In this document: piece by piece, positions 1-52,644 of the stretch
Layout of the letters: each line of letters begins with the position of its first letter
Numbering within the stretch: position 1 is the stretch's first letter
Assembly (NCBI GenBank): GCA_964501365.1
Contig: CAZCST010000030.1
Coordinates: 132,153-196,152, forward strand
Length of the DNA stretch: 64,000 nt
Origin: an uncultured Phycisphaera sp.
Lineage (GTDB): Bacteria > Planctomycetota > Phycisphaerae > UBA1845
Direction: 5' to 3'
The notes under the pieces: generated by a model
The model's input: the letters and a program-made list of their open reading frames with translations, nothing else
What the model was told of the DNA's origin: nothing
Database searches by the model: none
Program-made: the position numbers and the translations under genes

Positions 1-1566
1 GAGCAAATCGGAAAATCCGCGGCCGATGTTCTGCTCGACGGAGACTATGCTTACATGGATGCCGTCGGAAATCTCCAGCCCGCGAGGTGGGATATCACCG
101 GCGTTTCGGAGCCCGATTGCCTTCATTGCCATTTGCCGGATCCGGCTTGGAATGGAGGTGCAAATAACGGGCGATACACCCGCCGTGCGGCGGCCGCTGC
201 CGCAGGTGCGAGTCTCGTCGATGACTCGGGTACTCCCGTGCCTGCATTTGCGGCGGTTGGCGTGGCCGGTCAGGGCTGGTTCTCGGCCATGCCGATCGTG
301 AACGGCAAGGCAACCAAATTACAAATCGACTACAACGTCGGTGTTGCACAAGGGTTCTTGGCGCAATCGGACGACCTGAGTCTGGCGATTGCGCCGGGCG
401 TGCTCGACGTCCCGCCGCGAGACGAAGCCTGCTGGCAATGCCACGGTCCCATTGGCTGGGTCAGTTTGCGGGGCGGAGTGTGGTTCGATCAGCGCGATTT
501 TCATTATGCCAAACTGAACAATTTGCTCGATGAAAATCCGGACAACGATATCGCACCGAGAAACAGCAAGGCCTGCAACTATTGCCACCCCGGAAATATT
601 GATCACAACTTCGCCAAGGGGAACAGCCTCGTGCAGCATTCCCGACAGGAGCTGGATTGGGTCAATCTTCGCACGTGCCGGAGCTGCCATCTGGAGAACA
701 GCCCCACACGCCACCCCGATGCTCCGCCAGTGCCGGGGGACAAGCTGATTCATCTTGCGATGTGGGATGCGCCGGACAAGCTCTCCTGCCAGGCATGTCA
801 TATTCCGCAGCCCTGGTCCGCTCCGACACAAATGCGGGCATTTCGGGATTCGTCACTTGGAGGGCCGAGCATTACATATCAGGCCAGCCTGTTTTATTCC
901 GCCGATCCGCAAGACCCGAATGCCTCGGATAAGTCTTCCTGGTATCCGGGCCTGTATCCGAAAGTCGATGAAGATGGCGTGGTACGACTCTTTCCAGCCA
1001 TTCCTCCAAACCTCAGCATTTATTGGGGAAATCTGTACGATCGCGGAACACCACAACGAAGCGACGATCTGGTGATTCCGATTGCAACGTGGAGGTTCAA
1101 CCAGATCATTGGAAACCAGCCTCTTCCCGTCGTCACCGACGATAACAACGACGGAAAGCTGGAAATCAATCGACCAGAGGAAATGCTCGCGTATATGGCC
1201 GCGCTAAAGGGCGTCGATAGTTATGGCGAACAAGTAGCGGCCAATCCCGTTCTTGTGAAAGGCCGACAAATTTGGTTTGAGGATGCCGGCGCGCCTGGCG
1301 GCGTAGGTTCATTCGATGCCGAGGTTGAGGGAGTGAAGGCGGAGGGTGAGACCGGCACTTGGGGAATCAATCACAACGTCCGTCGTGCCGGGGAAGCCTG
1401 GGGATATGATGCCGCAAATCCAGCCGCCGGCTGCCGGGATTGTCACCGTCCCAACACGATGGACTCCCCTGTGTTCGACAGGCTGATTCTAATTGATCCG
1501 TTTGGTCTCGACGGTAAGCCGGTGTATGCATCCGTTCGCGAACTTACGGGATTGAATCCTCCCTGA
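1..1566 (+). CDS. Multiheme c-type cytochrome (six CxxCH motifs), 5'-truncated by the window edge
   Basis: Frame 1 is open from nt 1 with no stop before the first ATG at 55, so the gene probably continues upstream. Heme-c motifs: CLHCH, CWQCH, CNYCH, CRSCH, CQACH, CRDCH. The family cannot be assigned by eye. Confidence 0.75.
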   Translation, partial: EQIGKSAADVLLDGDYAYMDAVGNLQPARWDITGVSEPDCLHCHLPDPAWNGGANNGRYTRRAAAAAAGASLVDDSGTPVPAFAAVGVAGQGWFSAMPIVNGKATKLQIDYNVGVAQGFLAQSDDLSLAIAPGVLDVPPRDEACWQCHGPIGWVSLRGGVWFDQRDFHYAKLNNLLDENPDNDIAPRNSKACNYCHPGNIDHNFAKGNSLVQHSRQELDWVNLRTCRSCHLENSPTRHPDAPPVPGDKLIHLAMWDAPDKLSCQACHIPQPWSAPTQMRAFRDSSLGGPSITYQASLFYSADPQDPNASDKSSWYPGLYPKVDEDGVVRLFPAIPPNLSIYWGNLYDRGTPQRSDDLVIPIATWRFNQIIGNQPLPVVTDDNNDGKLEINRPEEMLAYMAALKGVDSYGEQVAANPVLVKGRQIWFEDAGAPGGVGSFDAEVEGVKAEGETGTWGINHNVRRAGEAWGYDAANPAAGCRDCHRPNTMDSPVFDRLILIDPFGLDGKPVYASVRELTGLNPP

Positions 1567-3409
1567 CCGGCGGAGCAGTGATTTCCTCGCGGCGCCACTG
1601 GCCTTCCTGAAGGATATCGATCTGAACCGGTTCGCCATGGTGGCGCGACTCGAAGTGTCGTTCGCCAAGAATGTCCTGTTCCATGTGCAACAACGTCCCG
1701 GCTATCGCCGCTCGTTCCGGAGGTCCCTGCTGTATCGCTGCAATCAAGTGTTCCGTTCCGTAAAAAGTCCGGCATGCGAGAGCGCCCGCAGTTCCTGAGG
1801 TGGCGGAAGCTATCGGTTGAGCACCATACTGATTGATCAGCGCCTCTGCGCAGGTCGCAGGCGATGGAGAAGAGGCCGATGCGATGACCGTCCAGCCCTC
1901 CTTCCTGACCAGGTCGGGTATTGGCGAATGAATGAGGTCTGATCCGCCTACGATCACGATTCGGCGATTCGCATCAGTGAGTCTCTGCAAGACGGGCGAC
2001 GCCTTTTGAAGATTTCCCCAGAGGAACAGGATCGCGATTCTTTCCCGATCCACGGCATCGCGGACGCGTTCCGGAGTTACCTCGGCCGCTGCAATGTAGC
2101 GAACATCATGGATTTCACGGCGGCCCACATAGGATCTGGTCCAGGCGGTCCGAAGCGCAGTCTCATATGCTGTGTCCAATTCTACTACCAACCATGAGCC
2201 ATTGTTCTTCCGGCGGACGAATTCGAGGAGGCCCCGAATTTGCCTGGGTTGATCCTCGTGGCACTGGAATATCCAGCGCTCCGAAGCAGCAAGCCCGCCC
2301 ATTTCGATCGGGTTGAGGGCCACGTTGATTGCCGGAATTTGCATGAAGTCAATCGAAGCGGCCGTGTACGGCTGGTTGTCGTCGAGATGGGCGATAAGAC
2401 CGACAACATTGGCGTTATCGGCGTATTTGACTAGGTCGTCTTCCAGCAAGCCCCATGCATATTTCGAATAGCCGGGCGCTGGCTGCCATAGCATGACTTC
2501 GGACGTCGGCTTCGCCAGACGAGCAAGCTGGACGGCAATGCGCGTCGCGGCAATGTCCGGTTGATTGCGTGTTGCCCCAACATTGGCTGGTGAAGTGTCG
2601 CCCGGAAGAACGATGCGTCTTGTGCCCGGACCCAGGATGGCGATCGTAGGATGTGATCGTTCAGGCTTTTCCTGATTTTCGCTTGTCGAAATTCGATTGT
2701 CGATTGTGCCGTTCGCCGCGGGATCGCGGTCCATGGACAAACGGGAAGCCGCGTGTTCCGACCACTGACGAGTCGCAGGTTCCCAGCGAAATTGACCGCC
2801 TGACCACATTTCGGCGAGCAGTGCGCCCTGCTCCACTCTTATGTGCACGGCAACTTGCTGCGGCACACCGGACCTCCGAGGCACGAGCAAGTCCCAGGTT
2901 TGGGAAATCGGATCGAACTCGCTGACACCACCGTTGGTGGCGGCGTACACGCGGCCTTGTCCAACGGCGACTCCGAACACCATGTCTCCGGCCAACCCGC
3001 TGTTGAACTGATCAAACACGTCAAAGCGCCCCGCCGTGAATCGGACCAGTCCCCCGCCAAGGGTTCCAATCCACAAGTCGCGGGTCGTGGGATCGATGTC
3101 GAATGAAGAGACCCGACGTACAGCATGACCATCAGCCCCACTCCATCGCCGCCACCGACCGTCCTTGAAGGCGGCCAGTCCGTCATCTCCACCGACCCAC
3201 GTTGTGCCAAAGAAATCGCGAACGACTCGAACATGGGAGAAGTCCGGCTGTCGCCACTCATCGGGACTGACAGAGAAATTGCCCTTCGTCAGTGAGCTGA
3301 CGTCCTGAGCAGCGCAGGGCAGGCGGTATAGCGTACACGTGAGCACCAAGCACGCGAGCGCAACAGAGAAATCACACCTATTGTGCTTTGAGATACGCGA
3401 TGAGGTCAT
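1544..3409 (-). CDS. Secreted two-domain protein: regulator-propeller-like repeats plus a type I periplasmic binding protein-like domain
   Basis: Hydrophobic signal-like N-terminus (VALACLVLTCTLYRLPCAAQ). Propeller-type repeats (WVGGDDGLAAF, LWIGTLGGGLVRF, VYAATNGGVSEF). The C-terminal half resembles Leu/Ile/Val-type solute-binding proteins. The ATG at 3409 overlaps the upstream gene by 32 nt. Confidence 0.5.
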   Translation of the reverse strand: MTSSRISKHNRCDFSVALACLVLTCTLYRLPCAAQDVSSLTKGNFSVSPDEWRQPDFSHVRVVRDFFGTTWVGGDDGLAAFKDGRWRRWSGADGHAVRRVSSFDIDPTTRDLWIGTLGGGLVRFTAGRFDVFDQFNSGLAGDMVFGVAVGQGRVYAATNGGVSEFDPISQTWDLLVPRRSGVPQQVAVHIRVEQGALLAEMWSGGQFRWEPATRQWSEHAASRLSMDRDPAANGTIDNRISTSENQEKPERSHPTIAILGPGTRRIVLPGDTSPANVGATRNQPDIAATRIAVQLARLAKPTSEVMLWQPAPGYSKYAWGLLEDDLVKYADNANVVGLIAHLDDNQPYTAASIDFMQIPAINVALNPIEMGGLAASERWIFQCHEDQPRQIRGLLEFVRRKNNGSWLVVELDTAYETALRTAWTRSYVGRREIHDVRYIAAAEVTPERVRDAVDRERIAILFLWGNLQKASPVLQRLTDANRRIVIVGGSDLIHSPIPDLVRKEGWTVIASASSPSPATCAEALINQYGAQPIASATSGTAGALACRTFYGTEHLIAAIQQGPPERAAIAGTLLHMEQDILGERHFESRHHGEPVQIDILQEGQWRREEITAPPVREDSIP

Positions 3410-5765
3410 TGAATTCCTGCCTGGTCAGGCCGTGTACGGCGCCGTGACGATTGATCATGTTGAAACGCGTCCAGATTTCCTCCAGGGTTTGGGCGGCGCC
3501 GTTGTGAAGGTACGGGGCACTCGCAGCGATGTCCGTCAATTGCGGCACATCCCATTCCACAGACGGCATGCCCGCGTCGGTGAAGTAATAAGTACCCAGT
3601 TCACCGAATTCGTCAGTGTTGAACAAGTCCTTCAATTCAACGGCGACCGGTGCATCGAACCACATCGTGGTGCTGACCGGGAATTTCAGGCGGTTTGTCC
3701 GATACGCTCCACTATGACAGTGGTTACAACGATTTTCCGGCGGAATCGGCGTGCCGTCGCTGGCCGTGGTGCGTTCAAATATGGCCTTGCCGCGCTTCTG
3801 AGACACATTGAGCCCCTCCGGGCTTCGAAACCGATTCGGAGGGCGCTCGATCGTGGCGATGTAATGAACCAGGTCGTCGAGGTCCTGCGGGGCAAATGGA
3901 GCCTGCCGCGTGAAGAACACGGCGAACCGTGCACCGCATTGCCGCGACAGGGAAGGGTTGGTTCCCTCCCACTTGAATGGGCCGGTGTCGAAAATCCCGC
4001 GCAGCGTGCGATTGTCCAGCGGTTTCATGCCCGGCCCATCTGCTTCAATATCGAACGTCAGTCCGTTGAGGTGGCCGTCAGGGTGACAGCTTCGACAGGA
4101 AAACTGCCGCCCAAACGTGACCTCAGCGTTGTGAAATAACTCCTCACCTTTTCGAAGCGGAGTGATTTCAGCAGGACCGTCTAGCTCAATCGTCCGCGAA
4201 ATCGTCCAGGTGGAAGCATCAATGACGCTAATGCTGTCCGAGAGCGCGTTGCAGACATAGGCGCTGCGTCCGTCCGGGGAAAAACGTACGCCGCGTGGAT
4301 TCCCTCCCACCGCAATGCGTTGCCTGACGAAATGTTCGCTCGAACCAAGATAGTCAGGTAAAGCCTCCGACTGGCGCCCGGGCTCCTGATGATCGACATA
4401 TTCCATCAACCTGGACACATCGATGACCGCCACAACATTCGCACCGCCACTTGTCACCAGCGCCCACCGACCATCAGGGCTCACGGCAATATCCATCAAG
4501 TCGGGAAGGGCGTCGTCGGGTTGATCCAGCAGCACCTGATCCACCCGGCCGCCGGGGCGTAGCACCGCAAGTCCGTTGGTGATCATCCATCCCTGAGCAA
4601 GCCGCGTTGCTGGGATCAGGTTCTTCGTCCGCATCAGAGTGACGAGAACAGTCAGGGTGTCGGGCACCCACGCGACACCCTGAAGCATGTTGCCGCCAGG
4701 AATACGAACTCGATCGATCACCAGTCCCTGAGCCGCATCAATGAATGACACTTCGGACACGGGCGGTTCGCGGAAGCGGGTTGGATTCGGCCGTACACTG
4801 GTCACGGCTGCAAGATTCCCACGGACCTGAAGCGCCTCGGACCAGGGGCCGGCCCCTGCGACCAGTCGACGAATCTCCTGTCGGGTCTGAGCGTCGATCA
4901 CACTGATGGAATCTTCGCCGGTGTTGAGTACGTAGATCCATCGGCCTGACGAATCCGTCATGACACCGTGGGGTTCTGCGCCGACTGGAATCTGCGTCAA
5001 TTCAACACCATTGGCAACATCCACAACGCTGAGCGTTCCGCTATAGGCGTTGGTGACGTACAGCGTGGTCGCACTTCCATCGAGCGTAGCCGCCTTGGGA
5101 CGGTGGCCGACATGGACTTCCTGCAGAACCACCCCTTTTTCAGCGTCGACAAATAATAGGCTGTCACTGTGTTCGGCAACGACGTACAACCGGGTGCCGT
5201 TCGGTGATACGGTCAGACTCACGGGCGTCTTGTAGTGCGAATCGGCAGGACGGCGTGAGAAATTTCCTTGTACGACTTCGCGATGCGAGGGCCGATCTGT
5301 ATGGCAAAGATGACAATCCGCGCGATCGCCCCGCTTGATGAACAGGGATTTGGCCGCCGAATATTCCCCTGATGTTTGCGATGAAACGGCAGCAATATGA
5401 GAGCTGCCGGGGCCGTGACAGCTTTCACACTGTACTCCATCGTCGGATTGGAATGTGGGTGCCCACCAGCGTGGTCCATCGTCGGCCCCCGCACTGTGGC
5501 ATTCAAGACATACCCTGGTTTCGGTCGGCCGGCCTGACACGCCGCTGAGGACCGCTATTTCCGACGCCCGAGGCGTGCTCAATAAACGGTACGAATGTGA
5601 GTGTCCGTGGATCGGCTCAAGGCGGCATTCTCCTGCCCGTCCTGAGGGCCCATGGCATGCGCTGCACGCACGAACCCCCGCGTAGCTGGAAAGAACAGGC
5701 TCCCCGGCAAGCGCACTGGGCCCTGCGACAAGGACGGCGAGAAACGGAAGGGCACGCTGATTCAT
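3378..5765 (-). CDS. Fusion protein: N-terminal tetraheme cytochrome c + YVTN-type beta-propeller + C-terminal diheme cytochrome c peroxidase/MauG-family domain
   Basis: Signal peptide. Four N-terminal motifs: CSACH, CLECH, CESCH, CHLCH. YVTN-like repeats (LYVTNAYSGTLSVVDV, IYVLNTGEDSISVIDA, AYVCNALSDSISVIDA). CCP/MauG-like C-terminus (CRSCHPDG, LDNRTLRGI..FKWEGTNPSLSRQCG, CNHCH, APYLHNGAAQTLEEI). The ATG overlaps the upstream stop (ATGA at 5762-5765). Confidence 0.75.
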   Translation of the reverse strand: MNQRALPFLAVLVAGPSALAGEPVLSSYAGVRACSACHGPSGRAGECRLEPIHGHSHSYRLLSTPRASEIAVLSGVSGRPTETRVCLECHSAGADDGPRWWAPTFQSDDGVQCESCHGPGSSHIAAVSSQTSGEYSAAKSLFIKRGDRADCHLCHTDRPSHREVVQGNFSRRPADSHYKTPVSLTVSPNGTRLYVVAEHSDSLLFVDAEKGVVLQEVHVGHRPKAATLDGSATTLYVTNAYSGTLSVVDVANGVELTQIPVGAEPHGVMTDSSGRWIYVLNTGEDSISVIDAQTRQEIRRLVAGAGPWSEALQVRGNLAAVTSVRPNPTRFREPPVSEVSFIDAAQGLVIDRVRIPGGNMLQGVAWVPDTLTVLVTLMRTKNLIPATRLAQGWMITNGLAVLRPGGRVDQVLLDQPDDALPDLMDIAVSPDGRWALVTSGGANVVAVIDVSRLMEYVDHQEPGRQSEALPDYLGSSEHFVRQRIAVGGNPRGVRFSPDGRSAYVCNALSDSISVIDASTWTISRTIELDGPAEITPLRKGEELFHNAEVTFGRQFSCRSCHPDGHLNGLTFDIEADGPGMKPLDNRTLRGIFDTGPFKWEGTNPSLSRQCGARFAVFFTRQAPFAPQDLDDLVHYIATIERPPNRFRSPEGLNVSQKRGKAIFERTTASDGTPIPPENRCNHCHSGAYRTNRLKFPVSTTMWFDAPVAVELKDLFNTDEFGELGTYYFTDAGMPSVEWDVPQLTDIAASAPYLHNGAAQTLEEIWTRFNMINRHGAVHGLTRQEFNDLIAYLKAQ

Positions 5766-7156
5766 GGTTCAGTACGTTGCTGCGTTTGGGTCGCAGGATT
5801 CAGGAAACGATCGGCACGCTCCGGCAATCGGAGTTTTTGGGCCGGTTTACGAAGCGCCAGCACATGGCGATTCGGCGGTGATAGCTTAGGATCTTCATGA
5901 CAGCCGATGCACCCGCGCCGCTCGCCGGGCATGAGCCATGTCCAGCTTTTCATTCCACGTACTACCTCGCCATCCTGGCCGACCAATTCGAGACGGATCG
6001 GGGTTCGCGCTGGCACTTCGAGAAAAAAGGATCCATCGTCCTCAACGCTAACCTCACCAAGCATGCGCTCGGAAACGCCGTCCCCCTGGGTTTGTGCCTC
6101 AAGAACGCGAACACGCTGGACCTTTCGATTCAGGGGTGAATTGAATTCCGTGATCGTACTGTCAAGGCAATAGAGACTCGCACCTGCCGAATCGCGCACG
6201 ACACTCGAATGTCCTGCGTGATCCCGGTACGGGGCGACAACAACCGGGTCGGTCTCATCCCATTCTACGCTGTCGTAAAAGATGTCCCTGGGGCCGCCAT
6301 GTGGGTCCAGTGCCACTACGCCCATCGATTTCGTGCCGTCGAGGAACACAGATTCAAGCATGCGGCCATCCGAAAGGCGGCGTCGTGCGAATGGAGCCTC
6401 GCCGGATTTGACGGAATCGGTGAACGCAGGTTCTGAAACGGTTTCAGGGCCGAGAAAGGAACTGGGCGGCGCATATGCCCTCAAGTCCGTTCCATCCACA
6501 TGTACGATGAACTGTTCGGCGAGTCCTGAATTCTCGCGAACGGCGCGCGGGAGATCCGAAAGACAAAACGCCAGGCGTCCGTCCGGTAGCGGTGTAGGGT
6601 TCACCACTCCCAACGGCGTAAACGTAATTTGCCTGCGATCCGATCCATCCACGCGGCTGGTGAAAATGACGGCAGGGCTGGCAGCTTTGGGCTGACAGAC
6701 AAAGGCGATCCTGTGGCTGGGGGCGGGATCGTCAAGCGTGTAGAGCGTGGATAGATACTCCGCTTGAATGCAGTCGCCGTCACAACCAATGATCTCGCGT
6801 TGCTCAGCGCCGTCGGACCGCATCTCCCATACACTTAGGTGCCTTGAACGATCCTCCCTGCCAACAAACAGGATTCTCGAAGCGTCAGACGAAACCCTCG
6901 GCCGAGCGGCCGTATCGAAGTTCGGCGTCAATAGCTCCACATGGGCTCCTTCCATGAGCAGCGCAATTTTGCTTTGAGGACGCGGTACGTAAGACGCCTT
7001 TGCCCCCGATGCAACGGCGATTTTGGGTGATTGGGTATAAGCGACTACGTCCGAAATCGGCTGGCCTCGAGGGGTGTAGTTTTCGGCCCCAGCCCTCACG
7101 CCGGTAATCACAATTACCCCGCAAAAAACGAATGCCGAAAAATCGCCCATCCCCAT
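5762..7156 (-). CDS. HzsA-like protein: PD40/TolB-like beta-propeller plus a heme-c module resembling the hydrazine synthase alpha middle domain (single CxxCH)
   Basis: The ORF opens at 7294, but a signal-peptide-like start MGMGDFSAFVFCGVIVITGVRAGA begins at 7156 or 7150. PD40-like strand ILFVGREDRSRHLSVWEMRSDG. The C-terminal block LGEVSVEDDGSFFLEVPARTPIRLELVGQDGEVVRGMKSWTWLMPGERRGCIGCHEDP matches my memory of the HZS_alpha family pattern. Confidence 0.6.
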   Translation of the reverse strand: MGMGDFSAFVFCGVIVITGVRAGAENYTPRGQPISDVVAYTQSPKIAVASGAKASYVPRPQSKIALLMEGAHVELLTPNFDTAARPRVSSDASRILFVGREDRSRHLSVWEMRSDGAEQREIIGCDGDCIQAEYLSTLYTLDDPAPSHRIAFVCQPKAASPAVIFTSRVDGSDRRQITFTPLGVVNPTPLPDGRLAFCLSDLPRAVRENSGLAEQFIVHVDGTDLRAYAPPSSFLGPETVSEPAFTDSVKSGEAPFARRRLSDGRMLESVFLDGTKSMGVVALDPHGGPRDIFYDSVEWDETDPVVVAPYRDHAGHSSVVRDSAGASLYCLDSTITEFNSPLNRKVQRVRVLEAQTQGDGVSERMLGEVSVEDDGSFFLEVPARTPIRLELVGQDGEVVRGMKSWTWLMPGERRGCIGCHEDPKLSPPNRHVLALRKPAQKLRLPERADRFLNPATQTQQRTEP

Positions 7157-7262
7157 GCCCAATCTTCCCTGCAATTTCGGGGCCAGACCTATCTTTTGGC
7201 ACGTGGATTGCTGATACTTTTTGCGTAATTGGACCTCAGGAAAGGAACTTACATTGACGCGG

Positions 7263-7757
7263 ATGAATTCAACAAAAGGCCATCGCCGGCCCACAATAGC
7301 GGACTCGTCGCGGATTCCTAAGAAAGCGATTCACAATCCCGCAGTGCTTTGCGAAGCTTACCACTACGAAAACCCGGTGGCCTTTTCACGGGGGATGCGC
7401 GTCGAGCTGGATGGTTGTTCCATGATTATCATCTCTGGCACGGCCAGTGTGGACGAAAAGGGTCGCTCCGTTCATGCGGGCGATTTCGTGGCTCAGGCGA
7501 AGCGCGCCTTTAACAACATTGCATCATTGTTGGCCGGCGAAGGCGCTGATTGGCATGATGTAGTCCGTACCACCTGCTACCTCGTCGATTTCCGCCATTA
7601 CAAGGATTTCAATGAAGTCCGGAACACCTTTTACGGCGAACTCGGCCTCAATCCGCTGCCTGCCAGCACCTGCGTGCAAGCCGGGCTTTGTCGGCCGGAA
7701 CTCCTCGTGGAAATTGATGCAATGGCGATCGTGCCGAAAGAAAGAACCCGGGAGTGA
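7263..7757 (+). CDS. RidA/YjgF/TdcF (endoribonuclease L-PSP) family protein
   Basis: Family-typical core IIISGTASVDEKGRSVHAGDFVAQAKRAFNNIASLL..VVRTTCYLVDF..ASTCVQAGL..LVEIDAMA. The ORF opens at 7221. Met at 7263 was chosen to avoid a long N-terminal extension, so the start is uncertain. Confidence 0.75.
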   Translation: MNSTKGHRRPTIADSSRIPKKAIHNPAVLCEAYHYENPVAFSRGMRVELDGCSMIIISGTASVDEKGRSVHAGDFVAQAKRAFNNIASLLAGEGADWHDVVRTTCYLVDFRHYKDFNEVRNTFYGELGLNPLPASTCVQAGLCRPELLVEIDAMAIVPKERTRE

Positions 7758-7862
7758 CGTGAAAGCACCTTACACCTTTATGTAGCGTTCCCCCTCGGGT
7801 GTAGCACGAAGAGCATAGCTGCCGCCGACACGCACCGACACCGGATTCAACCGCTAAAGGTA

Positions 7863-9281
7863 TTATTCATCCTCTTTTGGGGGATCATCAATCAGCAGCA
7901 CGCCGCGATGGTCCGCGTCGTTAAGTCGAAACCCCACGTCTTGCGGGCGAGTGCGAACATGTTCTTTCCGCCATGCAACGTCGCCCCCGTCGTCGATTCC
8001 GTTTTCGTCCACCGAGTAGATCACGATGCCTTGTTCCGTTCGCGCTACTTTCAGCGGTTTACGGTCAAATGGATCGACCGGCACCGACGGCAGGTAGGCC
8101 GGCACAAGTTGTTCGAGCGTCCCCGGCAGATGCCCCTCCGCCAGTCGAAACCGCTCAGCAGCCAACGCTGTAATCGCACAGTCCAGCTGCGTGGATATTT
8201 TTGTGTTTAGGACGACTGTTCGCGCAAGACTAGGCATGAATATCTTCACAAACATTTGTGTTCGCGGAAGACTGGACACTTCCTGTTCCATTTTGTGCGC
8301 GGCCGCAATCAACGCCATCGAATCGTCCGCTGCGTCAATCAACATATTGAGCAACTGTGCACCACGAATCTGGTTTGAACGAACCAGGAATGTCGGCATC
8401 CGAAGAAATGGTTGGGGAAGCAAGTTACAGTCTCCCCCGACCGAGCAAATATCAACATATTGCATCGATCCACCGATGATGGCCTCGCATGTTTCAACGA
8501 AGAAAGCCCGTTCGCCCAGCAACGCCCACATGAGCGTTCCGTATTGCTTCATCGCTCGAAATTCATTGCCCATGCGTTCCAGTGACGCAGTCTCCGCCGC
8601 TCCCACTCGAAGCATCTCCTCGGCGGTTTGAATGGCCATCGCCTGAACGGAAATCTGCACCAGACGGCTGATCAATATCGGTTCATCGCTGAAGGCTCCC
8701 GCCAGCCGGCATTGTAGCGCGAAATCACGAAGGGCTCCGGCTTGGTCGGCGCTGATTAATCTAAGTTTGGCGTCCAAATGCACGAGCTTCGATGCCGCTC
8801 GAACATGGGAAGTATGAGGTAGCAACGTCTTGATGGGATCCGCTTGATCATATTGGATCGCAAATCGGCCGCTGGGCATCTCGCCTATATCTTCAAGTTT
8901 TGTAAGTATGTCCTGGTGTTTCGACAGGAACTCCCGTGCCAATTCGAGGCGTCCTCGTTTGAGACCGGTGAAAAAATCGCCGGTCTCATTCGATCCGGAG
9001 CCCAGCGAATCGAGCGTAACAGCCCCGCCCCGCTGTTCCGCAAGGGCAGCCGATAGACCTTCTATGATGCGAGCGCTGTTTTGATCATCCGGAATGACCG
9101 CCCGTCGGGCTTCGATTTCCGCAAAAGTCAGCGGCTGTCCCTTCGCCCGCAGCGACGCAGCGTATGCCTCCCATTCCCGCGTCCCGGCCGCGCCCAGCGA
9201 AACAATGATGATCCAGATCGTCGCCCCCACGCCGATCATCCCCAAAAGGACTTTCGCCCAGATATTTCCGTTTCGCTTCAT
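7863..9281 (-). CDS. Hypothetical membrane-anchored protein (single N-terminal TM, large helical domain)
   Basis: The long ORF opens at 9371. The likely start is MKRNGNIWAKVLLGMIGVGATIWIIIVSL at 9281, which forms a TM anchor. No recognisable catalytic motif. Last gene of the TPM/LemA operon. Confidence 0.5.
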   Translation of the reverse strand: MKRNGNIWAKVLLGMIGVGATIWIIIVSLGAAGTREWEAYAASLRAKGQPLTFAEIEARRAVIPDDQNSARIIEGLSAALAEQRGGAVTLDSLGSGSNETGDFFTGLKRGRLELAREFLSKHQDILTKLEDIGEMPSGRFAIQYDQADPIKTLLPHTSHVRAASKLVHLDAKLRLISADQAGALRDFALQCRLAGAFSDEPILISRLVQISVQAMAIQTAEEMLRVGAAETASLERMGNEFRAMKQYGTLMWALLGERAFFVETCEAIIGGSMQYVDICSVGGDCNLLPQPFLRMPTFLVRSNQIRGAQLLNMLIDAADDSMALIAAAHKMEQEVSSLPRTQMFVKIFMPSLARTVVLNTKISTQLDCAITALAAERFRLAEGHLPGTLEQLVPAYLPSVPVDPFDRKPLKVARTEQGIVIYSVDENGIDDGGDVAWRKEHVRTRPQDVGFRLNDADHRGVLLIDDPPKEDE

Positions 9282-19576: not shown

Positions 19577-20716
19577 CTAGGATTTTTGGTCTCCGGGGCT
19601 GAGATAGTCCATAAGCTTGTCAAAAAAACCTCGAGATTCGGGCATGACTTCCAGGTCCTCTGTCTTGGCAAATTCACGAAGTAGCGTCTCCTGGGCCTTG
19701 CTCATGCTCTTGGGAATCTCCACGAGCACCTGCACAAGCTCTTCGCCCTTTCGCCCGCTCCGCAAATCCGGCAGGCCCTGACCGCCGAGCCGGAACAGTT
19801 GCCCGTGCTGTGTTCCCGGTGGAATCTTCAACTCGGCCTTGCCAGTGAGAGTCGGAGCCTCAACTACAGCGCCCAGTGCCGCCTGCGTAAAGCTGATGGG
19901 CATGCGGCAGACCAGATCGTTGTCATGCCGTTCCAGAAACGGATGCGGCTCGATCCGAACCAGACAGTGCAAATCGCCGCGGTCGGCTACATTTTCCCCC
20001 GGCTCGCCTTCGCCGCGAACGCGAACCGCCTGGCCCTCATGAATGCCCGCCGGAATCCGCACGGATACAATGCGTTCGCCGACCACCCGCCCCCGCCCCT
20101 TGCACTTGTCGCACGGTGTAACGATCGTAGAACCTCGCCCGCGACACGCTGGGCACGCCGTCACCACACGGCCAAACAGACCGGCCAGCCCGCCGCTTTG
20201 CTCGACCTGACCATACCCGCCGCAAGTCCGGCAGGTCTTTCGATCCGATCCCGGCGCAGCGCCAGTGCCCCCGCAAGTCCCGCAATGGTCCTGCCGCTCA
20301 AATTCAATCTGTCGCTCGGTACCGGCCGCAACTTCTGCAAGCGTAATCGTTACTTCGGTTTGCAGATCGCTTCCGCGTGTCCGACCCCCGCCACCCCGGC
20401 CAAACGCTCCGCCAAAAATGTCGTCGAACATCGAAAAGATGTCATCGACGCGCATATGCGAATAGTCAGTCCGGCTCGTCCCGTTCAGCCCGGCGTGGCC
20501 GTATTGGTCATATCGTTGGCGCAGCGCCGGATCGGAGAGCACCTGATACGCCTCCGAAGCCTCCTTGAACTTCAGTTCGGCGTCTGCCTCCGAATTGCGG
20601 TCCGGATGAAACTTGTGGGCGGCCCGGCGGTACGCCTTTTTGAGCTCATCGGGTGACGCATTCCGCTCCACCGCCAGCACTTCGTAAAAATCACGTTTCG
20701 CCGCTGCCACACTCAT
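19577..20716 (-). CDS. dnaJ: Molecular chaperone DnaJ
   Basis: J domain with HPD (KFHPDRN), a Gly-rich linker, and four CxxCxGxG repeats (CGTCGGTG, CRTCGGYG, CPACRGRG, CDKCKGRG). Confidence 0.92.
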   Translation of the reverse strand: MSVAAAKRDFYEVLAVERNASPDELKKAYRRAAHKFHPDRNSEADAELKFKEASEAYQVLSDPALRQRYDQYGHAGLNGTSRTDYSHMRVDDIFSMFDDIFGGAFGRGGGGRTRGSDLQTEVTITLAEVAAGTERQIEFERQDHCGTCGGTGAAPGSDRKTCRTCGGYGQVEQSGGLAGLFGRVVTACPACRGRGSTIVTPCDKCKGRGRVVGERIVSVRIPAGIHEGQAVRVRGEGEPGENVADRGDLHCLVRIEPHPFLERHDNDLVCRMPISFTQAALGAVVEAPTLTGKAELKIPPGTQHGQLFRLGGQGLPDLRSGRKGEELVQVLVEIPKSMSKAQETLLREFAKTEDLEVMPESRGFFDKLMDYLSPGDQKS

Positions 20717-20850: not shown

Positions 20851-22464
<1,614 letters not shown>

Positions 22465-22500
22465 AGGAAACTCCAAGTGCCAAGTTGGTAGTGGATCAAA

Positions 22501-22540
22501 TTACCACATTACCAAGTTACAAAGTTACCAAATTACTTAT
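22501..22540 (+). repeat. Period-8 word array TTACCACA|TTACCAAG|TTACAAAG|TTACCAAA|TTACTTAT
   Basis: Direct reading. It fills the groES-groEL spacer, and the last unit contains the groES stop codon (22533-22535). Confidence 0.8.
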
Positions 22541-22862
22541 CCACCACCGCAAGCACGTCGCTCTCTCGAATCACTACATACGTCTCTGAACCCAGATCAA
22601 CTTCCGTGCCCGAATACTTGCCGTAGACGACCTCATCGCCCACGCGGAGGTTCATTTCCGCCCGCTTGCCGCTCTTGAGCGACTTGCCGGGACCGACCGC
22701 CAGAACCTTGCCGCGCTGTGGCTTTTCCTTGGCCGTGTCGGGCAAAATGATCCCGCCCGCCGTCCGCTCGGTCGCCTCAAGAGGCTGGATGAGTACGCGA
22801 TCCTCCAACGGGTGAAACTTCACCTTCGTTCTGCTCGGTGCTGTAGCTGTTGCCGTCGCCAT
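22533..22862 (-). CDS. groES: Co-chaperonin GroES (Cpn10)
   Basis: KFHPLEDRVLIQPLEATERTAGGIILPDTAKEKPQRGKVLAVGPG. AAGGAGAG Shine-Dalgarno upstream. Confidence 0.93.
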   Translation of the reverse strand: MATATATAPSRTKVKFHPLEDRVLIQPLEATERTAGGIILPDTAKEKPQRGKVLAVGPGKSLKSGKRAEMNLRVGDEVVYGKYSGTEVDLGSETYVVIRESDVLAVVDK

Positions 22863-22893
22863 TTTGATTGTCTCTCCTTCTGTTTATCGTTTC

Positions 22894-22928
22894 TTCGAAC
22901 TTCGAATTTTGAACTTCGAACTTCGTTT
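22894..22928 (+). repeat. Period-7 word array TTCGAAC|TTCGAAT|TTTGAAC|TTCGAAC|TTCGTTT
   Basis: Direct reading. It lies in the groEL-groES spacer, and the last unit overlaps the stop codon of the upstream groEL (22927-22929). Confidence 0.8.
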
Positions 22929-24561
22929 AGTAATCCATGTCCTCGTCCATGCCCGGAGGTGGAGTTTCGTCCTTGTCCTTCTTGGGCTTGTCCGTAATGC
23001 ATACTTCGGTGCTCAGCAGCACGCGGGCCACGCTGCTGGCGTTCTCCAGCGCCGACCGCACGACCTTGGTCGGATCGATCACGCCGTCCTTGATCAGGTC
23101 GGTGTACTCGCCGCTGTCTGCGTTGTAGCCAAACGAGCCTGACTTCTCCAGGACCCTGTGCACGACCACGCCGGGATTTACTCCCGCATTCGTCGCAATC
23201 TGCCGCAGCGGGGCGGAGAGCGCCTCGCGCACAATGTTCACGCCGGTCTGCTCATCGCCATCAAGGTCAAGCTTGTCCAGCACACTCATGCACCGTACCA
23301 ACGCCACTCCGCCGCCGGGAACAATCCCCTCTTCCAGGGCCGCGCGGGTCGCGTGCAGCGCATCCTCAATTCGCGCCTTCTTTTCCTTCAATTCCGTCTC
23401 GGTGGCGGCGCCGACGTTGATTTCTGCTACGCCGCCCACCAGCTTCGCCCGACGCTCCTCCAGCTTTTCGCGATCGTAATCCGAGGTCGTCGCCGCGATT
23501 TCCGCGGAAATCTGCTTGATTCGCCCCTGGATATCCTCGGTCGAGCCCGCACCCTCAATAATCGTCGTGTTATTCGCATCGACGATGATCTTCTTGGCCT
23601 GGCCGAGTTCCTTGATCGAAACTTTCTCAAGATCGAGCCCGAGGTCCTTCATGATCGGCGTCGCACCCGTGAGTTTCGCAATGTCTTCGAGCATGGCCTT
23701 GCGGCGGTCGCCATAGGCCGGCGCCTTCACCGCACACACGTCGAGAATGCCGCGAATCTTGTTCACTACCAGCGTCGCCAGCGCCTCGCCTTCAATGTCC
23801 TCGGCGAGAATCAGCAGCGGCCGCTTGGCCTTGGCTACCTTTTCGAGCAATGGGATCAGCTTCGGAACGCTGCTGATCTTGTCTTCATGAATAAGAATGA
23901 ACGCCTTGTTGAGCACGCATTCCATCGAGTTTTGATCGCTTACGAAATGCGGAGAGAGAAACCCGCGATCGAATTGCATGCCTTCGACCACTTCGATCGC
24001 AGTCTCGGACGTCTTGCCCTCCTCGACCGTGATCACGCCGTCTTTGCCGACCTTCTCGAAGCAATCTGCGAGGAGCTCGCCAATCTTCTGATCATTGTTC
24101 GCCGAAATCCGGGCGACGTTAACGATGTCGTCGCGCTTGTTCGCCTTCACAGGCCGTGATTGCTCCTTGAGAGCCTCGACGACCTTCGCGACCGCCTTCT
24201 GAATTCCGCGTGTCAGCGCGAACGCATCAGCACCTGCGGCGATGTTCTTCAAACCGTGTTGGAATAGCGCTTCCGCAAGGACCGTTGCCGTGGTCGTACC
24301 GTCGCCGGCGACCTCACTGGTCTTGCTGGCCGCCTGCTTTACGAGCTGAGCGCCGAGGTTTTCATATTTGTCTGAAAGTTCAACTTCTTCGGCCACCGTC
24401 ACCCCGTCCTTGGTGATCGTCGGCCCGCCCCAGCCCTTGTCGATGACCGCGTTGCGTCCGCGGGGACCAAGGGTAGCCTTGACCGCGCTGGCCAGCTTCT
24501 GTACGCCATTCCACAGCGACTGCCGTGCATCCTGCTCATAGGCCAATTGCTTGACCGCCAT
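22927..24561 (-). CDS. groEL: Chaperonin GroEL (Cpn60), paralog upstream of groES
   Basis: [38 protein letters not shown]. Acidic C-terminal tail [20 protein letters not shown] instead of GGM repeats. Confidence 0.93.
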
Positions 24562-26399: not shown

Positions 26400-27434
26400 C
26401 TAGAATCCTTCGGGAAGCTTAAAATCCGCGATGAAAATTTGCGAGTCAGGAAGTCCCCCGCGCTTGCTTGTCCACAACAATTTCTTCCCATCGGAACTGA
26501 ACACCGGAAGGCCATCAAATTCCGGATCAAATGTAATCCGAAGCGGCTCGCCCCCTTCAACCCTCATCAGGAAGAGGTCGTAGTTGGGCTTCCCGCCCCT
26601 TGCATAGGCCCCGTGGTCCGCCTGCGTGAAAATGAAACTCTTCCCCGACGGATAATAATACGGACACCAGTTGAAAATCGGGTTGTCAGTAATCGCCCGG
26701 TCGTTGCTGCCGTCGGCGTTCACCATTCGAATTTGCAAATTCTGCTTTCCATCATCGCGCCGATCGCCTCGGTACAAGATCATCTTTCCGTCGGGCGAAA
26801 AAAACGGCCCGCCGTCATACCCCTTGGCGTTCGTGAGCCGCTTCGGTGACGAGCCGTCAGCGTTCATGACATAAATCTCAAGATCGCCGTCTCGCTGCGA
26901 GGTAAACACAATCTGCTTGCCATCGGGCGAATACGAACCCTCCGCGTCATATCCTTTGGCGTCGGTCAATCGCTTGAGATGCGATCCATCGACATCCGCC
27001 TCAAAGATGTCCATGTATTCATTGAAATCCCATTCGTAGCCACGGCCCTGCCTGGGCGGTTTGGGCTTGTCCAAATCTGGATCAAGATGTGACGACGCAA
27101 AAACGATCTTCTTTCCGTCCGGCCGGTAAAACGAGCAAGTGCATGCCCCTTTGCCGGTGCTGACCATTTTGGGCGATTTGGAACCCAGCTCCAGGGTATA
27201 GATTTGGTAATCGTTTGCGCCGAGCCCTTCCTTTTTTGGCACGGCCTGGAAAATGATCGACTTCGCATCCGGCGAAAAGTAGGCCTCTCCGGCCTTGGAA
27301 AATCCCATCGTATCGAATGTGACCTGCTGAATGTTCGTAAGATACTTGGACTCGTCGGACATCTGCGCGGATGCATGCCCGATGAGGGCGTGCATCAAAA
27401 CCGGAACCAGAAACATCGTTGTGTGAATACGCAT
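26400..27434 (-). CDS. PD40/TolB-like beta-propeller repeat protein, secreted
   Basis: Repeats YFSPDAKSIIFQA, FYRPDGKKIVFAS, SYSPDGKQIVFTSQRDGDLEIYVMNADGS, FFSPDGKMILYRG, VFSSDGKKLLWTS. The ORF opens at 27569, but the signal peptide MRIHTTMFLVPVLMHALIGHASA starts at 27434. Confidence 0.75.
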   Translation of the reverse strand: MRIHTTMFLVPVLMHALIGHASAQMSDESKYLTNIQQVTFDTMGFSKAGEAYFSPDAKSIIFQAVPKKEGLGANDYQIYTLELGSKSPKMVSTGKGACTCSFYRPDGKKIVFASSHLDPDLDKPKPPRQGRGYEWDFNEYMDIFEADVDGSHLKRLTDAKGYDAEGSYSPDGKQIVFTSQRDGDLEIYVMNADGSSPKRLTNAKGYDGGPFFSPDGKMILYRGDRRDDGKQNLQIRMVNADGSNDRAITDNPIFNWCPYYYPSGKSFIFTQADHGAYARGGKPNYDLFLMRVEGGEPLRITFDPEFDGLPVFSSDGKKLLWTSKRGGLPDSQIFIADFKLPEGF

Positions 27435-27511
27435 TTCTACACCTGAAAAGGAGAAAATTGAATGCCCGTCCGATTTCCGCTGTTGTGGAACAAGTTGTGT
27501 CTGCGGCCCGC

Positions 27512-28069
<558 letters not shown>

Positions 28070-52608: not shown

Positions 52609-52644
52609 AACCAACCAAGACCCAGTTGAGGCGTAAGAAGCGAA

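What the first reader, a model, noticed from the sequence alone, without database searches (positions are those of the whole stretch)
1..7294. Hydrazine-synthase-like domain inventory (HzsA-like protein plus propeller-CCP/MauG fusion) in a translationally coupled heme operon
Seen in sequence:
- Three minus-strand genes are tightly coupled, with an ATGA overlap at 5762-5765 and a 32-nt overlap at 3378-3409.
- Gene A (5762-7156) is a PD40-type propeller followed by a C-terminal module ending KSWTWLMPGERRGCIGCHEDP, with one CxxCH.
- Gene B (3378-5765) fuses four CxxCH motifs, a YVTN beta-propeller and a diheme CCP/MauG-type domain.
- Gene C (1544-3409) is a secreted propeller plus solute-binding-like protein.
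- A hexaheme cytochrome (1-1566) converges on the operon.
- Together this gives 13 CxxCH sites.

Established knowledge: anammox hydrazine synthase is built from an alpha subunit (propeller plus heme-binding middle domain plus C-terminal heme domain), a beta subunit (propeller) and a gamma subunit (diheme, CCP/MauG-like fold). Beta and gamma are fused in some anammox lineages.

Inference: genes A and B reproduce that inventory, minus the second alpha heme and plus a tetraheme entry module. The genomic context is GC-rich and shows no other anammox hallmark in this window. This could be an uncharacterised N-oxide, hydroxylamine or peroxide-transforming heme complex rather than a simple peroxidase.
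Basis: partly seen in the sequence, partly recalled or inferred. Interest (0 to 1): 0.75.

Follow-up and report, generated by a model that had tools for sequence, protein, structure and literature searches.

The report
Hydrazine-synthase-like haem operon, not anammox
This operon encodes secreted haem proteins that are true but distant relatives of the anammox enzyme hydrazine synthase; they lack the residues that enzyme needs, and they belong to a widespread, already published family whose function is unknown.

Summary
Three coupled minus-strand genes encode:
- A, an HzsA-like protein with one CxxCH.
- B, a fusion of a tetrahaem c554-like module, an HzsB-like propeller and an HzsC-like dihaem domain.
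- C, a Reg_prop propeller fused to a LivK-type binding domain.

The nearest solved structures are the hydrazine synthase (HZS) subunits, well ahead of peroxidases and of TolB.

It is not a hydrazine synthase:
- Scores lie far below the NCBIfam cut-offs.
- The haem αII domain, αTyr591, αCys303, γAsp168, γHis144 and the β-loop Glu are missing.
- The extra haem-linking Cys (γCys165) is kept. It sits in a Trp-x9-Gln-Cys-Gly-x-Arg pocket that mixes CCP/MauG and HZS features.

The A-B-C order is conserved in about 97% of 79 related loci from at least seven phyla.

The family is already described (Dalcin Martins 2023; Hägglund 2025). The window holds a compact six-haem Phycisphaerae-type member without the FG-GAP gene.

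Seen here, and not in the parts of those papers I read: the conserved propeller gene C, its fusion to the binding protein, and a co-travelling Rid-family gene.

Function is unknown. My best guess is a periplasmic two-site reductase for a small N- or O-oxide.

The parts
5762..7156 (-). Gene A: secreted HzsA-like protein (464 aa), made of a propeller plus the HZS_alpha middle domain. It has no C-terminal haem alpha-II domain.
   Evidence: Pfam HZS_alpha E 1.7e-22. Family profile against 5c2v_A gives E 7e-45, collinear with HzsA chain residues 29-560. Model pLDDT 78, best fold match 5c2v_A with TM 0.66.
5897..5911 (-). Single haem-binding motif of A (CIGCH, residues 416-420). It lies inside the family-invariant block M..W.MP...RGCIGCHE....PPN(RH).
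   Evidence: It aligns with the HzsA haem alpha-I CSGCH motif. No Tyr follows it.
3378..5765 (-). Gene B: secreted 795-aa fusion with six c-type haem motifs.
5286..5693 (-). B residues about 25-160: tetrahaem cytochrome c554-like module, the presumed electron wire.
   Evidence: Pfam Cytochrome_C554 E 8.8e-08. All four CxxCH motifs are invariant in 20 homologues.
4215..5237 (-). B residues 177-517: seven-bladed YVTN propeller, HzsB-like.
   Evidence: 5c2v_B E 4.6e-34 over chain residues 14-348 of 352. NCBIfam hydrazine_beta 162.6 bits.
3381..4160 (-). B residues 536-795: dihaem HzsC/CCP/MauG-type domain. It holds CRSCH557-561, W599, Q609, C610, R613 and CNHCH680-684.
   Evidence: 5c2v_C E 3.9e-18 for the single sequence and 1.2e-30 for the profile. 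The motif W-x9-QCGxR is present in 78 of 80 loci.
1544..3409 (-). Gene C: secreted fusion of a short Reg_prop propeller (residues about 59-218; 2756-3235) and a type I periplasmic binding domain (residues about 255-610; 1580-2647).
   Evidence: Homologues carry PF07494 and PF13458. Model pLDDT 80; Foldseek LivK 2.2e-11 and BT4663 propeller 1e-8. A C-type gene follows B in 65 of 68 loci.
7221..7757 (+). Rid-family (YjgF-like) gene, divergent from A. It is probably cytoplasmic and is a conserved companion of the cluster.
   Evidence: Pfam Ribonuc_L-PSP E 3.2e-22. NCBIfam TIGR00004 59.8 bits, below the cut-off of 106. Orthologues 50-70% identical are adjacent to the cluster in 27 of 79 loci, five of them with a 4-nt overlap onto A.
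1..1566 (+). 3' part of a convergent multihaem cytochrome (753 aa and 7 CxxCH in full). It is a neighbour and probably not a core part.
   Evidence: A homologue lies behind the cluster in only 1 of 80 loci (L007).

Best explanation
The window carries a compact member of the published family of non-anammox hydrazine-synthase-like gene clusters.

Shown:
- A, B and C are co-transcribed, translationally coupled and secreted.
- A is homologous to the propeller and middle domain of HzsA.
- B is homologous to HzsB fused to HzsC, behind a tetrahaem c554-type module.
- C is a sensor-type propeller fused to a LivK-type ligand-binding domain.
- The set A-B-C (plus binding protein) is inherited as a unit across many phyla.

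Inferred:
- The proteins assemble in the periplasm into an HZS-like complex.
- Electrons enter through the four N-terminal haems of B. They pass to the bis-His-type second haem of the dihaem domain, and then via the invariant Trp599 to the catalytic haem.
- That catalytic haem is held by three cysteines (C557, C560 and the extra C610). It faces Gln609 and Arg613, with a hydrophobic residue where HZS has Asp168.
- A small N- or O-oxide (NO, NH2OH or H2O2-like) is reduced there.
- A's ordinary His-ligated haem serves as a second site or as an electron partner.
- The binding domain of C captures a small ligand.

It does not make hydrazine, and the organism is not a cryptic anammox bacterium.
For: Homology:
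- Pfam HZS_alpha 80 bits.
- The best NCBIfam hits for A and B are the hydrazine synthase models.
- PDB sequence searches give 5c2v_A, 5c2v_B and 5c2v_C as the closest solved relatives among haem enzymes. One S-layer YVTN propeller outranks them, but only on repeats.
- The fold match of A is to 5c2v_A, TM 0.66.

Complex and unit of inheritance:
- ATGA and 32-nt overlaps.
- A upstream of B in 56 of 58 loci. C downstream in 65 of 68. A binding protein downstream in 52 of 53.
- C and the binding protein are fused in the window's clade and separate elsewhere, which acts as a Rosetta-stone link.

Catalytic pocket:
- All six CxxCH motifs and C610 are invariant.
- W-x9-QCGxR followed by L or F occurs in 78 of 80 loci.
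- C610 aligns with gamma-Cys165, W599 with gamma-His144 (Trp in CCP/MauG), and Q609 with the CCP distal Gln.

Not HZS:
- Scores of 55.5 against 800 and 187 against 1250.
- No Tyr after CIGCH, and no alpha-II domain.
- Independent agreement from PMC12758564.

No HAO, HDH or NXR gene is present in the 64-kb window.
Against: - No experiment exists for any member of the family. Substrate, direction of electron flow and subunit contacts are all inferred.
- The pocket keeps the CCP/MauG Trp and Gln, so plain peroxidase chemistry or MauG-like oxidation fits equally well.
- The conserved binding proteins, the propeller C, the FG-GAP protein of the larger clusters and the Rid-family gene have no role in a simple small-oxide reductase model.
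- Window A lacks about 45 residues of the propeller that most of the family has.
Confidence: 0.6

Rival explanations
1. It is a genuine, divergent hydrazine synthase, and the organism is an unrecognised anammox bacterium. This was suggested for similar genes in PMC10732223 and PMC11828985.
For: The subunit inventory and folds match HZS. The beta-gamma fusion is also seen in Scalindua. The gamma-Cys165 equivalent is kept.
Against: - NCBIfam scores are 7-15% of the equivalog cut-offs.
- The alpha-Tyr591/Cys303 site, the alpha-II domain, gamma-Asp168, gamma-His144 and the beta-loop Glu are all missing.
- Gene order is reversed relative to anammox bacteria.
- The family occurs in Acidobacteriota, Verrucomicrobiota, Gemmatimonadota and others.
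- There is no hdh or hao in the window.
- PMC12758564 reaches the same conclusion.
Confidence: 0.03
2. It is essentially a multihaem cytochrome c peroxidase. B reduces H2O2 to water for detoxification or peroxide respiration, fed by its own haem wire, with A and C as structural or accessory partners.
For: The dihaem domain belongs to the CCP/MauG superfamily. It keeps the inter-haem Trp and the distal Gln at Trp+10.
Against: - The Pfam CCP_MauG model does not match B at all.
- HzsC is closer than any CCP by more than 20 orders of magnitude.
- The position of the CCP catalytic Glu (Trp+20) is an invariant Thr-Arg.
- An invariant third haem-linking Cys is unknown in CCPs.
- Strict co-inheritance with A, C and binding proteins is not expected for a peroxidase.
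Confidence: 0.15
3. It is an oxidative enzyme. A ligand delivered by the binding domain (an amine, amino acid or similar) is oxidised at the A or B haems, electrons leave through the tetrahaem module to the respiratory chain, and the Rid-family protein deals with a reactive product.
For: LivK-type binding proteins are conserved in 52 of 53 loci and fused to C here. A Rid-family gene is adjacent in 27 of 79 loci. No ABC permease or ATPase gene is among the conserved neighbours, so the binding proteins probably do not serve transport.
Against: - The Rid protein has no signal peptide, whereas the complex is periplasmic.
- The Rid protein lacks the Arg105 needed for imine hydrolysis in RidA.
- No ligand is known.
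- HZS and CCPs both work reductively at the equivalent haem.
Confidence: 0.12
4. B is a MauG/MbnH-like maturase. It uses peroxide or O2 to oxidise residues of a partner protein (A or C), creating a protein-derived cofactor, and the real catalyst is that modified partner.
For: Weak NCBIfam hits to MbnH, MauG and the His-Xaa-Ser-system MauG-like proteins. The Trp hole-hopping residue is conserved. MauG-type enzymes are always encoded next to their protein substrates.
Against: - Those hits are far weaker than the hits to HzsC.
- A stoichiometric fusion to a propeller and a 4-8 haem wire is not what a maturase needs.
- No candidate modified residue was identified.
Confidence: 0.08

Closest known systems
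Non-anammox HZS-like alpha / beta-gamma gene clusters: Hägglund et al. 2025, Genome Biol Evol, PMC12758564, clades I-III; and the Phycisphaerae UBA1845 hzsA-like + hzsBC-like genes of Dalcin Martins et al. 2023, PMC10732223
   Same: - The alpha-like gene lies directly upstream of a fused beta-gamma-like gene.
- There are extra N-terminal c554-type haems.
- Gamma-Cys165 is kept and gamma-His144 is replaced by Trp.
- Alpha-Tyr591 and Cys303 are absent.
- Binding-protein genes lie downstream.
- One of the published MAGs (OFTM5) is locus L006 here: 53% identity in B and the same layout.
   Different: - The window has the compact layout: 4+2 haems rather than 8+2.
- A has one haem and no alpha-II domain.
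- There is no FG-GAP/CRTAC1 gene.
- C is fused to the binding domain.
- Its A also lacks about 45 propeller residues.
- The propeller gene C and the Rid-family companion are not mentioned in the parts of the papers I read.
Anammox hydrazine synthase HzsABC (Kuenenia stuttgartiensis, PDB 5C2V)
   Same: - Same folds and same order of domains.
- Closest solved structures for A, for the propeller of B and for the dihaem domain of B.
- Third cysteine at the catalytic gamma-I haem.
- Blade-6 loop region present.
   Different: - 16-17% identity for A.
- No alpha-II haem domain.
- Canonical His-ligated haem instead of the Tyr591/Zn site.
- No Asp168, Trp for His144, no loop Glu.
- A fused tetrahaem wire.
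- Sec-type periplasmic location.
- Reversed gene order.
- Extra partners (C, binding domain).
Bacterial dihaem cytochrome c peroxidases and MauG/MbnH (Pfam PF03150)
   Same: Two c-type haems. An inter-haem Trp and a distal Gln at Trp+10. The PYLHNG motif near the second haem.
   Different: - The Pfam model is not matched.
- The extra haem-linking Cys.
- Thr-Arg at the position of the catalytic Glu.
- Fusion to a propeller and a haem wire.
- An obligatory HzsA-like partner.

Membership tests
Anammox hydrazine synthase (NCBIfam NF052339-NF052342) | Scores reach the curated equivalog cut-offs | tested here: not met
   A scores 55.5 bits against 800. B scores 187.1 against 1250 (BC fusion), 162.6 against 560 (beta) and 71.4 against 625 (gamma).
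Anammox hydrazine synthase | The alpha subunit has three domains, including the C-terminal bis-His haem alpha-II domain | tested here: not met
   A ends 44 residues after its only CxxCH. Homology to 5c2v_A stops at chain residue 560 of 782. The 10-haem relatives such as L030 do keep this domain.
Anammox hydrazine synthase | Haem alpha-I with a Tyr591 proximal ligand, and His587 diverted to a zinc ion shared with Cys303 | tested here: not met
   No Tyr occurs in the 15 residues after CIGCH, either in the window protein or in the 28-sequence alignment (consensus HEDRELTPPNRH). Tyr is absent in 58 of 65 related loci. The column aligned to Cys303 is Ser in the window and His in the consensus. The same was reported in PMC12758564.
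Anammox hydrazine synthase | Haem gamma-I bound by three cysteines (CxxCH plus Cys165) | tested here: met
   C610 aligns with Cys165, is invariant in 20 homologues and is present in 79 of 80 loci. This holds at the sequence level only; the covalent link itself was not tested.
Anammox hydrazine synthase | Gamma-Asp168 at the distal side of haem gamma-I (proton supply, PMC12607021) | tested here: not met
   The aligned residue is Phe614 in the window, and Leu (75) or Phe (3) in 78 loci.
Anammox hydrazine synthase | Gamma-His144 between the two gamma haems | tested here: not met
   Trp599, which is invariant. This is the CCP/MauG state.
Anammox hydrazine synthase | Beta-subunit loop 245-260 with the Mg-binding Glu253 | tested here: not met
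   The loop region aligns without gaps, but the Glu position is Ala390. The chain-to-residue offset of 32 is my own inference. The loss is also reported in PMC12758564.
Anammox hydrazine synthase | Genomic company of hdh/hao-type octahaem genes and other anammox genes | tested here: inconclusive
   None in the 64-kb window or in the extra 6 kb of L001. The rest of the genome was not available.
Non-anammox HZS-like clusters (PMC12758564, PMC10732223) | The alpha-like gene is adjacent to and upstream of a fused beta-gamma-like gene | tested here: met
   There is a 4-nt overlap in the window. The same order occurs in 56 of 58 related loci.
Non-anammox HZS-like clusters | Extra N-terminal cytochrome c554-type haem domain(s) on the beta-gamma protein | tested here: met
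   The window has one tetrahaem module. Most relatives have two.
Non-anammox HZS-like clusters | An FG-GAP / CRTAC1 (ASPIC-UnbV) gene in the cluster (clades I-III) | tested here: not met
   There is no homologue in the window (tblastn). It is absent in 11 of the 65 loci where an A gene was found, all in or near the window's clade.
Non-anammox HZS-like clusters | Periplasmic binding-protein genes downstream | tested here: met
   Present as the C-terminal domain of gene C. Related loci have two separate genes.
Dihaem cytochrome c peroxidase / MauG (PF03150) | Match to the family model | tested here: not met
   There is no PF03150 hit for B at E <= 0.1. RoxA-like_Cyt-c scores 24.6 bits, below the 26.7 cut-off. 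NCBIfam CytoC_perox scores 12.5 bits.
Dihaem cytochrome c peroxidase / MauG | Inter-haem Trp, distal Gln and catalytic Glu (Trp, Trp+10, Trp+20) | tested here: inconclusive
   Trp599 and Gln609 are present and align to CCP chains. Trp+20 is an invariant Thr619-Arg620 rather than Glu. The Glu spacing is taken from memory of the Pseudomonas and MauG numbering.

The most novel reading that the evidence does not exclude
The A-B-C(+binding protein)+Rid module is a widespread periplasmic enzyme. It is found in at least 351 species-level genomes and in more than 1000 protein clusters at 50% identity. On this reading it catalyses a nitrogen-cycle reaction not yet described. One example would be reduction of NO or hydroxylamine at the triple-cysteine haem, coupled at the second haem to an amine or other ligand brought by the binding domain. 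That would make it a non-anammox cousin of hydrazine synthesis operating in soils and sediments.
Probability: 0.1. Interest if true: 0.9.

Novelty: new member of a known kind. Interest (0 to 1): 0.45.

Why it matters
Hydrazine synthase was long thought to have no relatives. These clusters are its only known kin and probably resemble its ancestor.

They are common in Planctomycetota, Acidobacteriota, Verrucomicrobiota and Gemmatimonadota from soils, peat, groundwater and sediments. No member has been studied biochemically.

Metagenomic surveys already count such genes as 'hzsA' and infer anammox potential in ten phyla (PMC11828985). The residue-level tests here argue that such counts are wrong for this family.

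Learning the real substrate could add a reaction to the nitrogen or reactive-oxygen cycle. It could also explain how the N-N bond-forming enzyme evolved.

For this window specifically the gain is modest. It adds one more, rather reduced, member, together with the observation that a sensor-type propeller, a binding domain and a Rid-family gene belong to the conserved set.

Tried and rejected
1. A+B complex prediction was not possible.
2. The promoter and terminator scan of 1-8000 gave counts at the shuffle level and is uninformative.
3. The convergent cytochrome D and its upstream 834-aa gene E were tested as possible partners. D was found behind the cluster only in L007, and E only in L006, L007 and L010 (plus a weak partial match in L074). 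I rejected them as core parts.
4. Single-linkage clustering of all neighbour ORFs merged the propeller proteins into one cluster. It revealed no further conserved neighbour beyond binding proteins, Rid and a TPR-like protein in 9 loci.
5. tblastn of the free-standing binding proteins of L030 against the window found nothing. The binding domain of C had to be shown through homologues and structure instead.
6. My first regular expression for the pocket motif had the wrong spacing and matched nothing. It was corrected.
7. Reading the Rid-family gene as an imine deaminase is weakened, because the Arg105 equivalent is Ser.
8. Literature searches for experimental work on cultured carriers (Opitutus, Thermogutta, Syntrophobacter, Paludibaculum) found none.
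9. The organism could not be named. No 100% match exists among the species-representative genomes, and the best is 57% to Phycisphaerae MAGs.

Full report
**1. What is in the sequence**

The ORF list shows three minus-strand genes:
- A: 5762-7156 from the ATG. A longer GTG-start ORF reaches 7294.
- B: 3378-5765.
- C: 1544-3409.

A's stop overlaps B's start in ATGA at 5762-5765. B and C overlap by 32 nt. Gene callers on two public contigs identical to this stretch chose the same three genes with the same lengths: 464, 795 and 621 aa.

A has one CxxCH (CIGCH 416-420). B has six (34, 86, 113, 151, 557, 680). C has none. All three start with a hydrophobic signal-like segment.

The plus-strand cytochrome at 1-1566 is cut by the window edge. 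On contig L001 it is 753 aa with seven CxxCH, six of them inside the window. It is preceded by an 834-aa gene with no family match.

G+C content is even across the window, 0.55-0.60.

**2. Homology to hydrazine synthase is real**

Gene A:
- It matches Pfam HZS_alpha above threshold: 80.2 bits against 26.6, E 1.7e-22.
- Its best NCBIfam hit is hydrazine_alpha.
- Its only PDB sequence hit is 5c2v_A.
- A profile of 28 family members scores E 7e-45 against 5c2v_A. It matches in three collinear stretches covering chain residues 29-131, 216-394 and 429-560, and ends exactly at the haem alpha-I CxxCH.
- An AlphaFold2 model (pLDDT 78, pTM 0.79) finds 5c2v_A/D first: E 1.5e-19, TM 0.66-0.67. TolB is next at 1e-7 with TM 0.30.

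Gene B:
- Residues 180-516 align with HzsB over chain residues 14-348 of 352 (E 4.6e-34).
- Residues 536-794 align with HzsC over chain residues 42-313 of 314 (E 3.9e-18).
- Ordinary peroxidases score about 1e-3.
- A profile of the dihaem domain widens the gap: HzsC 1.2e-30, best CCP-type chain 6e-9.
- The N-terminal 160 residues are a cytochrome c554-type tetrahaem module.

Gene C:
- It has no Pfam match itself.
- Its homologues at 40-51% identity carry Reg_prop (PF07494) and Peripla_BP_6 (PF13458).
- Its model (pLDDT 80, pTM 0.83) matches LivK/LivJ-type binding proteins (2.2e-11). It also matches the sensor propeller of the BT4663 hybrid two-component system (1e-8, rmsd 4 Å).

**3. It is not a hydrazine synthase**

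Scores are 7-29% of the NCBIfam equivalog cut-offs. I checked the residues that the structural and spectroscopic literature ties to catalysis (PMC12607021; PMC12758564).

Alpha side:
- A ends 44 residues after its only haem motif, so the haem alpha-II domain is absent.
- No tyrosine follows CIGCH (family consensus HEDRELTPPNRH). The Tyr591 ligand is therefore missing and the haem should be ordinarily His-ligated.
- The column of the zinc ligand Cys303 is Ser in the window.

Gamma side:
- C610 aligns with Cys165, the third haem-linking cysteine, and is invariant.
- Asp168 is replaced by Phe614 (Leu in most relatives).
- His144 is replaced by Trp599.

Beta side:
- The loop aligns, but its Mg-binding Glu is Ala390 (offset inferred).

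Across 80 related loci, the motif Trp-x9-Gln-Cys-Gly-x-Arg followed by Leu or Phe is present in 78. Trp and Gln sit where CCPs and MauG have their inter-haem Trp and distal Gln. Twenty residues after the Trp, where I recall the CCP catalytic Glu, there is an invariant Thr-Arg.

The pocket is thus a hybrid: a CCP/MauG electron path and Gln, the HZS third thioether, and neither the CCP Glu nor the HZS Asp.

**4. The gene set is conserved and widespread**

- Homologue searches found more than 1400 B-type and 350 A-type proteins among the candidates scored. They are mostly named 'beta-propeller fold lactonase family protein' and 'HzsA-related protein' from Planctomycetota MAGs, and many A/B pairs share a contig.
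- A scan of one genome per species found at least 351 loci. The best 80 come from Planctomycetota (Phycisphaerae, Sedimentisphaerales, Pirellulales, Thermoguttaceae), Acidobacteriota, Verrucomicrobiota, Gemmatimonadota, Bdellovibrionota, Deltaproteobacteria/Thermodesulfobacteriota and Anaerolineales.
- In those loci, A lies upstream of B in 56 of 58 with enough flank. A C-type propeller gene follows B in 65 of 68. A LivK-type binding protein follows in 52 of 53.
- An exhaustive profile search gives 1063 A-type clusters (50% identity) at E <= 1e-30.

Two layouts exist:
- Most loci carry: [Rid] - A (two haem motifs) - FG-GAP/ASPIC protein - B (8+2 haems) - C (about 400 aa) - two binding proteins. 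The layout was read in detail in L030.
- The window and eleven loci (L003-L010, L067, L068, L074) carry the compact layout: A (one haem) - B (4+2 haems) - C fused to the binding domain, with no FG-GAP gene. These loci are mostly Phycisphaerae, plus one labelled Acidobacteriota.
- In a neighbour-joining tree of the beta-gamma part, rooted with Kuenenia HzsB+HzsC, the ten compact loci with an intact B plus the window (L074 was left out) form a clade in the main tree, recovered in 28 of 50 bootstrap replicates, sister to the 10-haem group. Both groups are equally distant from HZS.

**5. Already published**

- Dalcin Martins et al. [quoted passage not shown] Their MAG OFTM5 is locus L006 here.
- Hägglund et al. 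2025 (PMC12758564) analysed the wider family. They covered the gene order, the FG-GAP gene, the downstream binding proteins, the c554 domains, the loss of Tyr591, Cys303 and the loop Glu, the retention of Cys165 and Trp for His144. They concluded that these are not hydrazine synthases.
- A cold-seep survey (PMC11828985) instead counted such genes as anammox potential in ten phyla. My residue tests side with Hägglund et al.
- No paper in the library reports biochemistry or genetics for the family.

**6. What this analysis adds**

- The Reg_prop propeller gene C is as conserved as A and B.
- C's fusion to the binding domain in the window's clade argues that propeller and binding protein work together.
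- No ABC permease or ATPase gene is among the conserved neighbours, so the binding proteins are probably parts of the system rather than of a transporter.
- A Rid-family gene (window 7221-7757, divergent from A) has orthologues 50-70% identical next to the cluster in 27 of 79 loci. Five of them overlap A by 4 nt.
- That Rid protein has no signal peptide, and it has Ser where E. coli RidA has Arg105 (E. coli sequence from memory).
- Neither gene C nor the Rid gene appears in the main text of PMC12758564.
- Window A and its three closest relatives lack about 45 residues of the propeller that the rest of the family has.

**7. How it most likely works**

Shown: a co-inherited, co-transcribed set of secreted proteins with HZS-like folds, seven haem sites in A+B, and a ligand-binding domain.

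Inferred:
- The proteins form a periplasmic complex built like HZS.
- Electrons run from the tetrahaem module to the second haem of the dihaem domain, and via Trp599 to the triple-cysteine haem.
- A small N- or O-oxide is reduced at that haem.
- A's ordinary haem acts as a second site or as a relay.

The substrate is unknown. Rival readings cannot be excluded: peroxidase, outward-flowing oxidation of a bound ligand, or a MauG-like maturase. The roles of C, the binding domain and the Rid protein are unexplained by any of them.

**8. Context and verdict**

The rest of the window is housekeeping:
- two GroEL genes, DnaJ, BamA and Ddl;
- a sigma factor, peptidases and an aldehyde dehydrogenase;
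- a GSDH gene next to a dihaem cytochrome.

No HAO, HDH or NXR gene is present.

The finding is a new, reduced member of a known but functionally uncharacterised family. It is interesting as enzymology waiting to be done, not as a discovery.

Noticed in passing
window 7221-7757 (+); L047, L056, L070, L073, L081 and others: A Rid-family (YjgF-like) gene is a conserved companion of the HZS-like cluster. Orthologues 50-70% identical are adjacent in 27 of 79 loci across phyla, sometimes overlapping gene A by 4 nt. It has no signal peptide, and the Arg105 of RidA is Ser.
   Followed up: partly
window 1-1566 (+); L001 10517-15324: The convergent multihaem cytochrome is truncated by the window. In full it is 753 aa with 7 CxxCH plus a CSGSCH near the N-terminus. 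It follows an 834-aa gene with a Cys/Asp-rich C-terminus and no family match. The pair recurs behind the cluster only in L007 (the 834-aa gene also in L006 and L010).
   Followed up: partly
window about 6400-6480 (gene A residues about 228-256): Window A and its three closest relatives (P0122, P0124, P0125) lack about 45 residues (the MPCET...SLH.RR segment, aligned to HzsA chain residues about 281-330) that the rest of the family has. The model is disordered here (pLDDT below 50 at residues 232-256).
   Followed up: partly
window 2756-3235 (gene C residues 59-218): The propeller part of C is only about 160 residues (about four blades). The free-standing C proteins of the 10-haem clusters are about 400 aa. 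The window's C may need a partner or dimerisation to close the propeller.
   Followed up: no
L030 6274-8325 and about 25 other loci: In many 10-haem clusters the second haem motif of the A-type protein is CxxxxCH (for example CSTAACH) where HzsA has CAMCH. This is an expanded haem-binding motif.
   Followed up: no
window 51205-53346 (+): A PQQ-type glucose/sorbosone dehydrogenase (GSDH) gene is followed by a dihaem cytochrome c. This is probably a separate periplasmic dehydrogenase with its electron acceptor.
   Followed up: no
window 20851-24561 (-): Two tandem GroEL (Cpn60) paralogues, with DnaJ next at 19577-20716.
   Followed up: no
window 26400-27569 (-): A TolB-like PD40 propeller protein that weakly cross-hits the A-type propeller (tblastn 1e-5). 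It is unrelated to the cluster.
   Followed up: no
L030 3204-5961: In the Acidobacteriota chromosome, a periplasmic (Tat-signal) molybdopterin aldehyde-oxidase/xanthine-dehydrogenase-type pair sits just upstream of the cluster. It is seen in only 2 loci, so it is probably coincidental.
   Followed up: no
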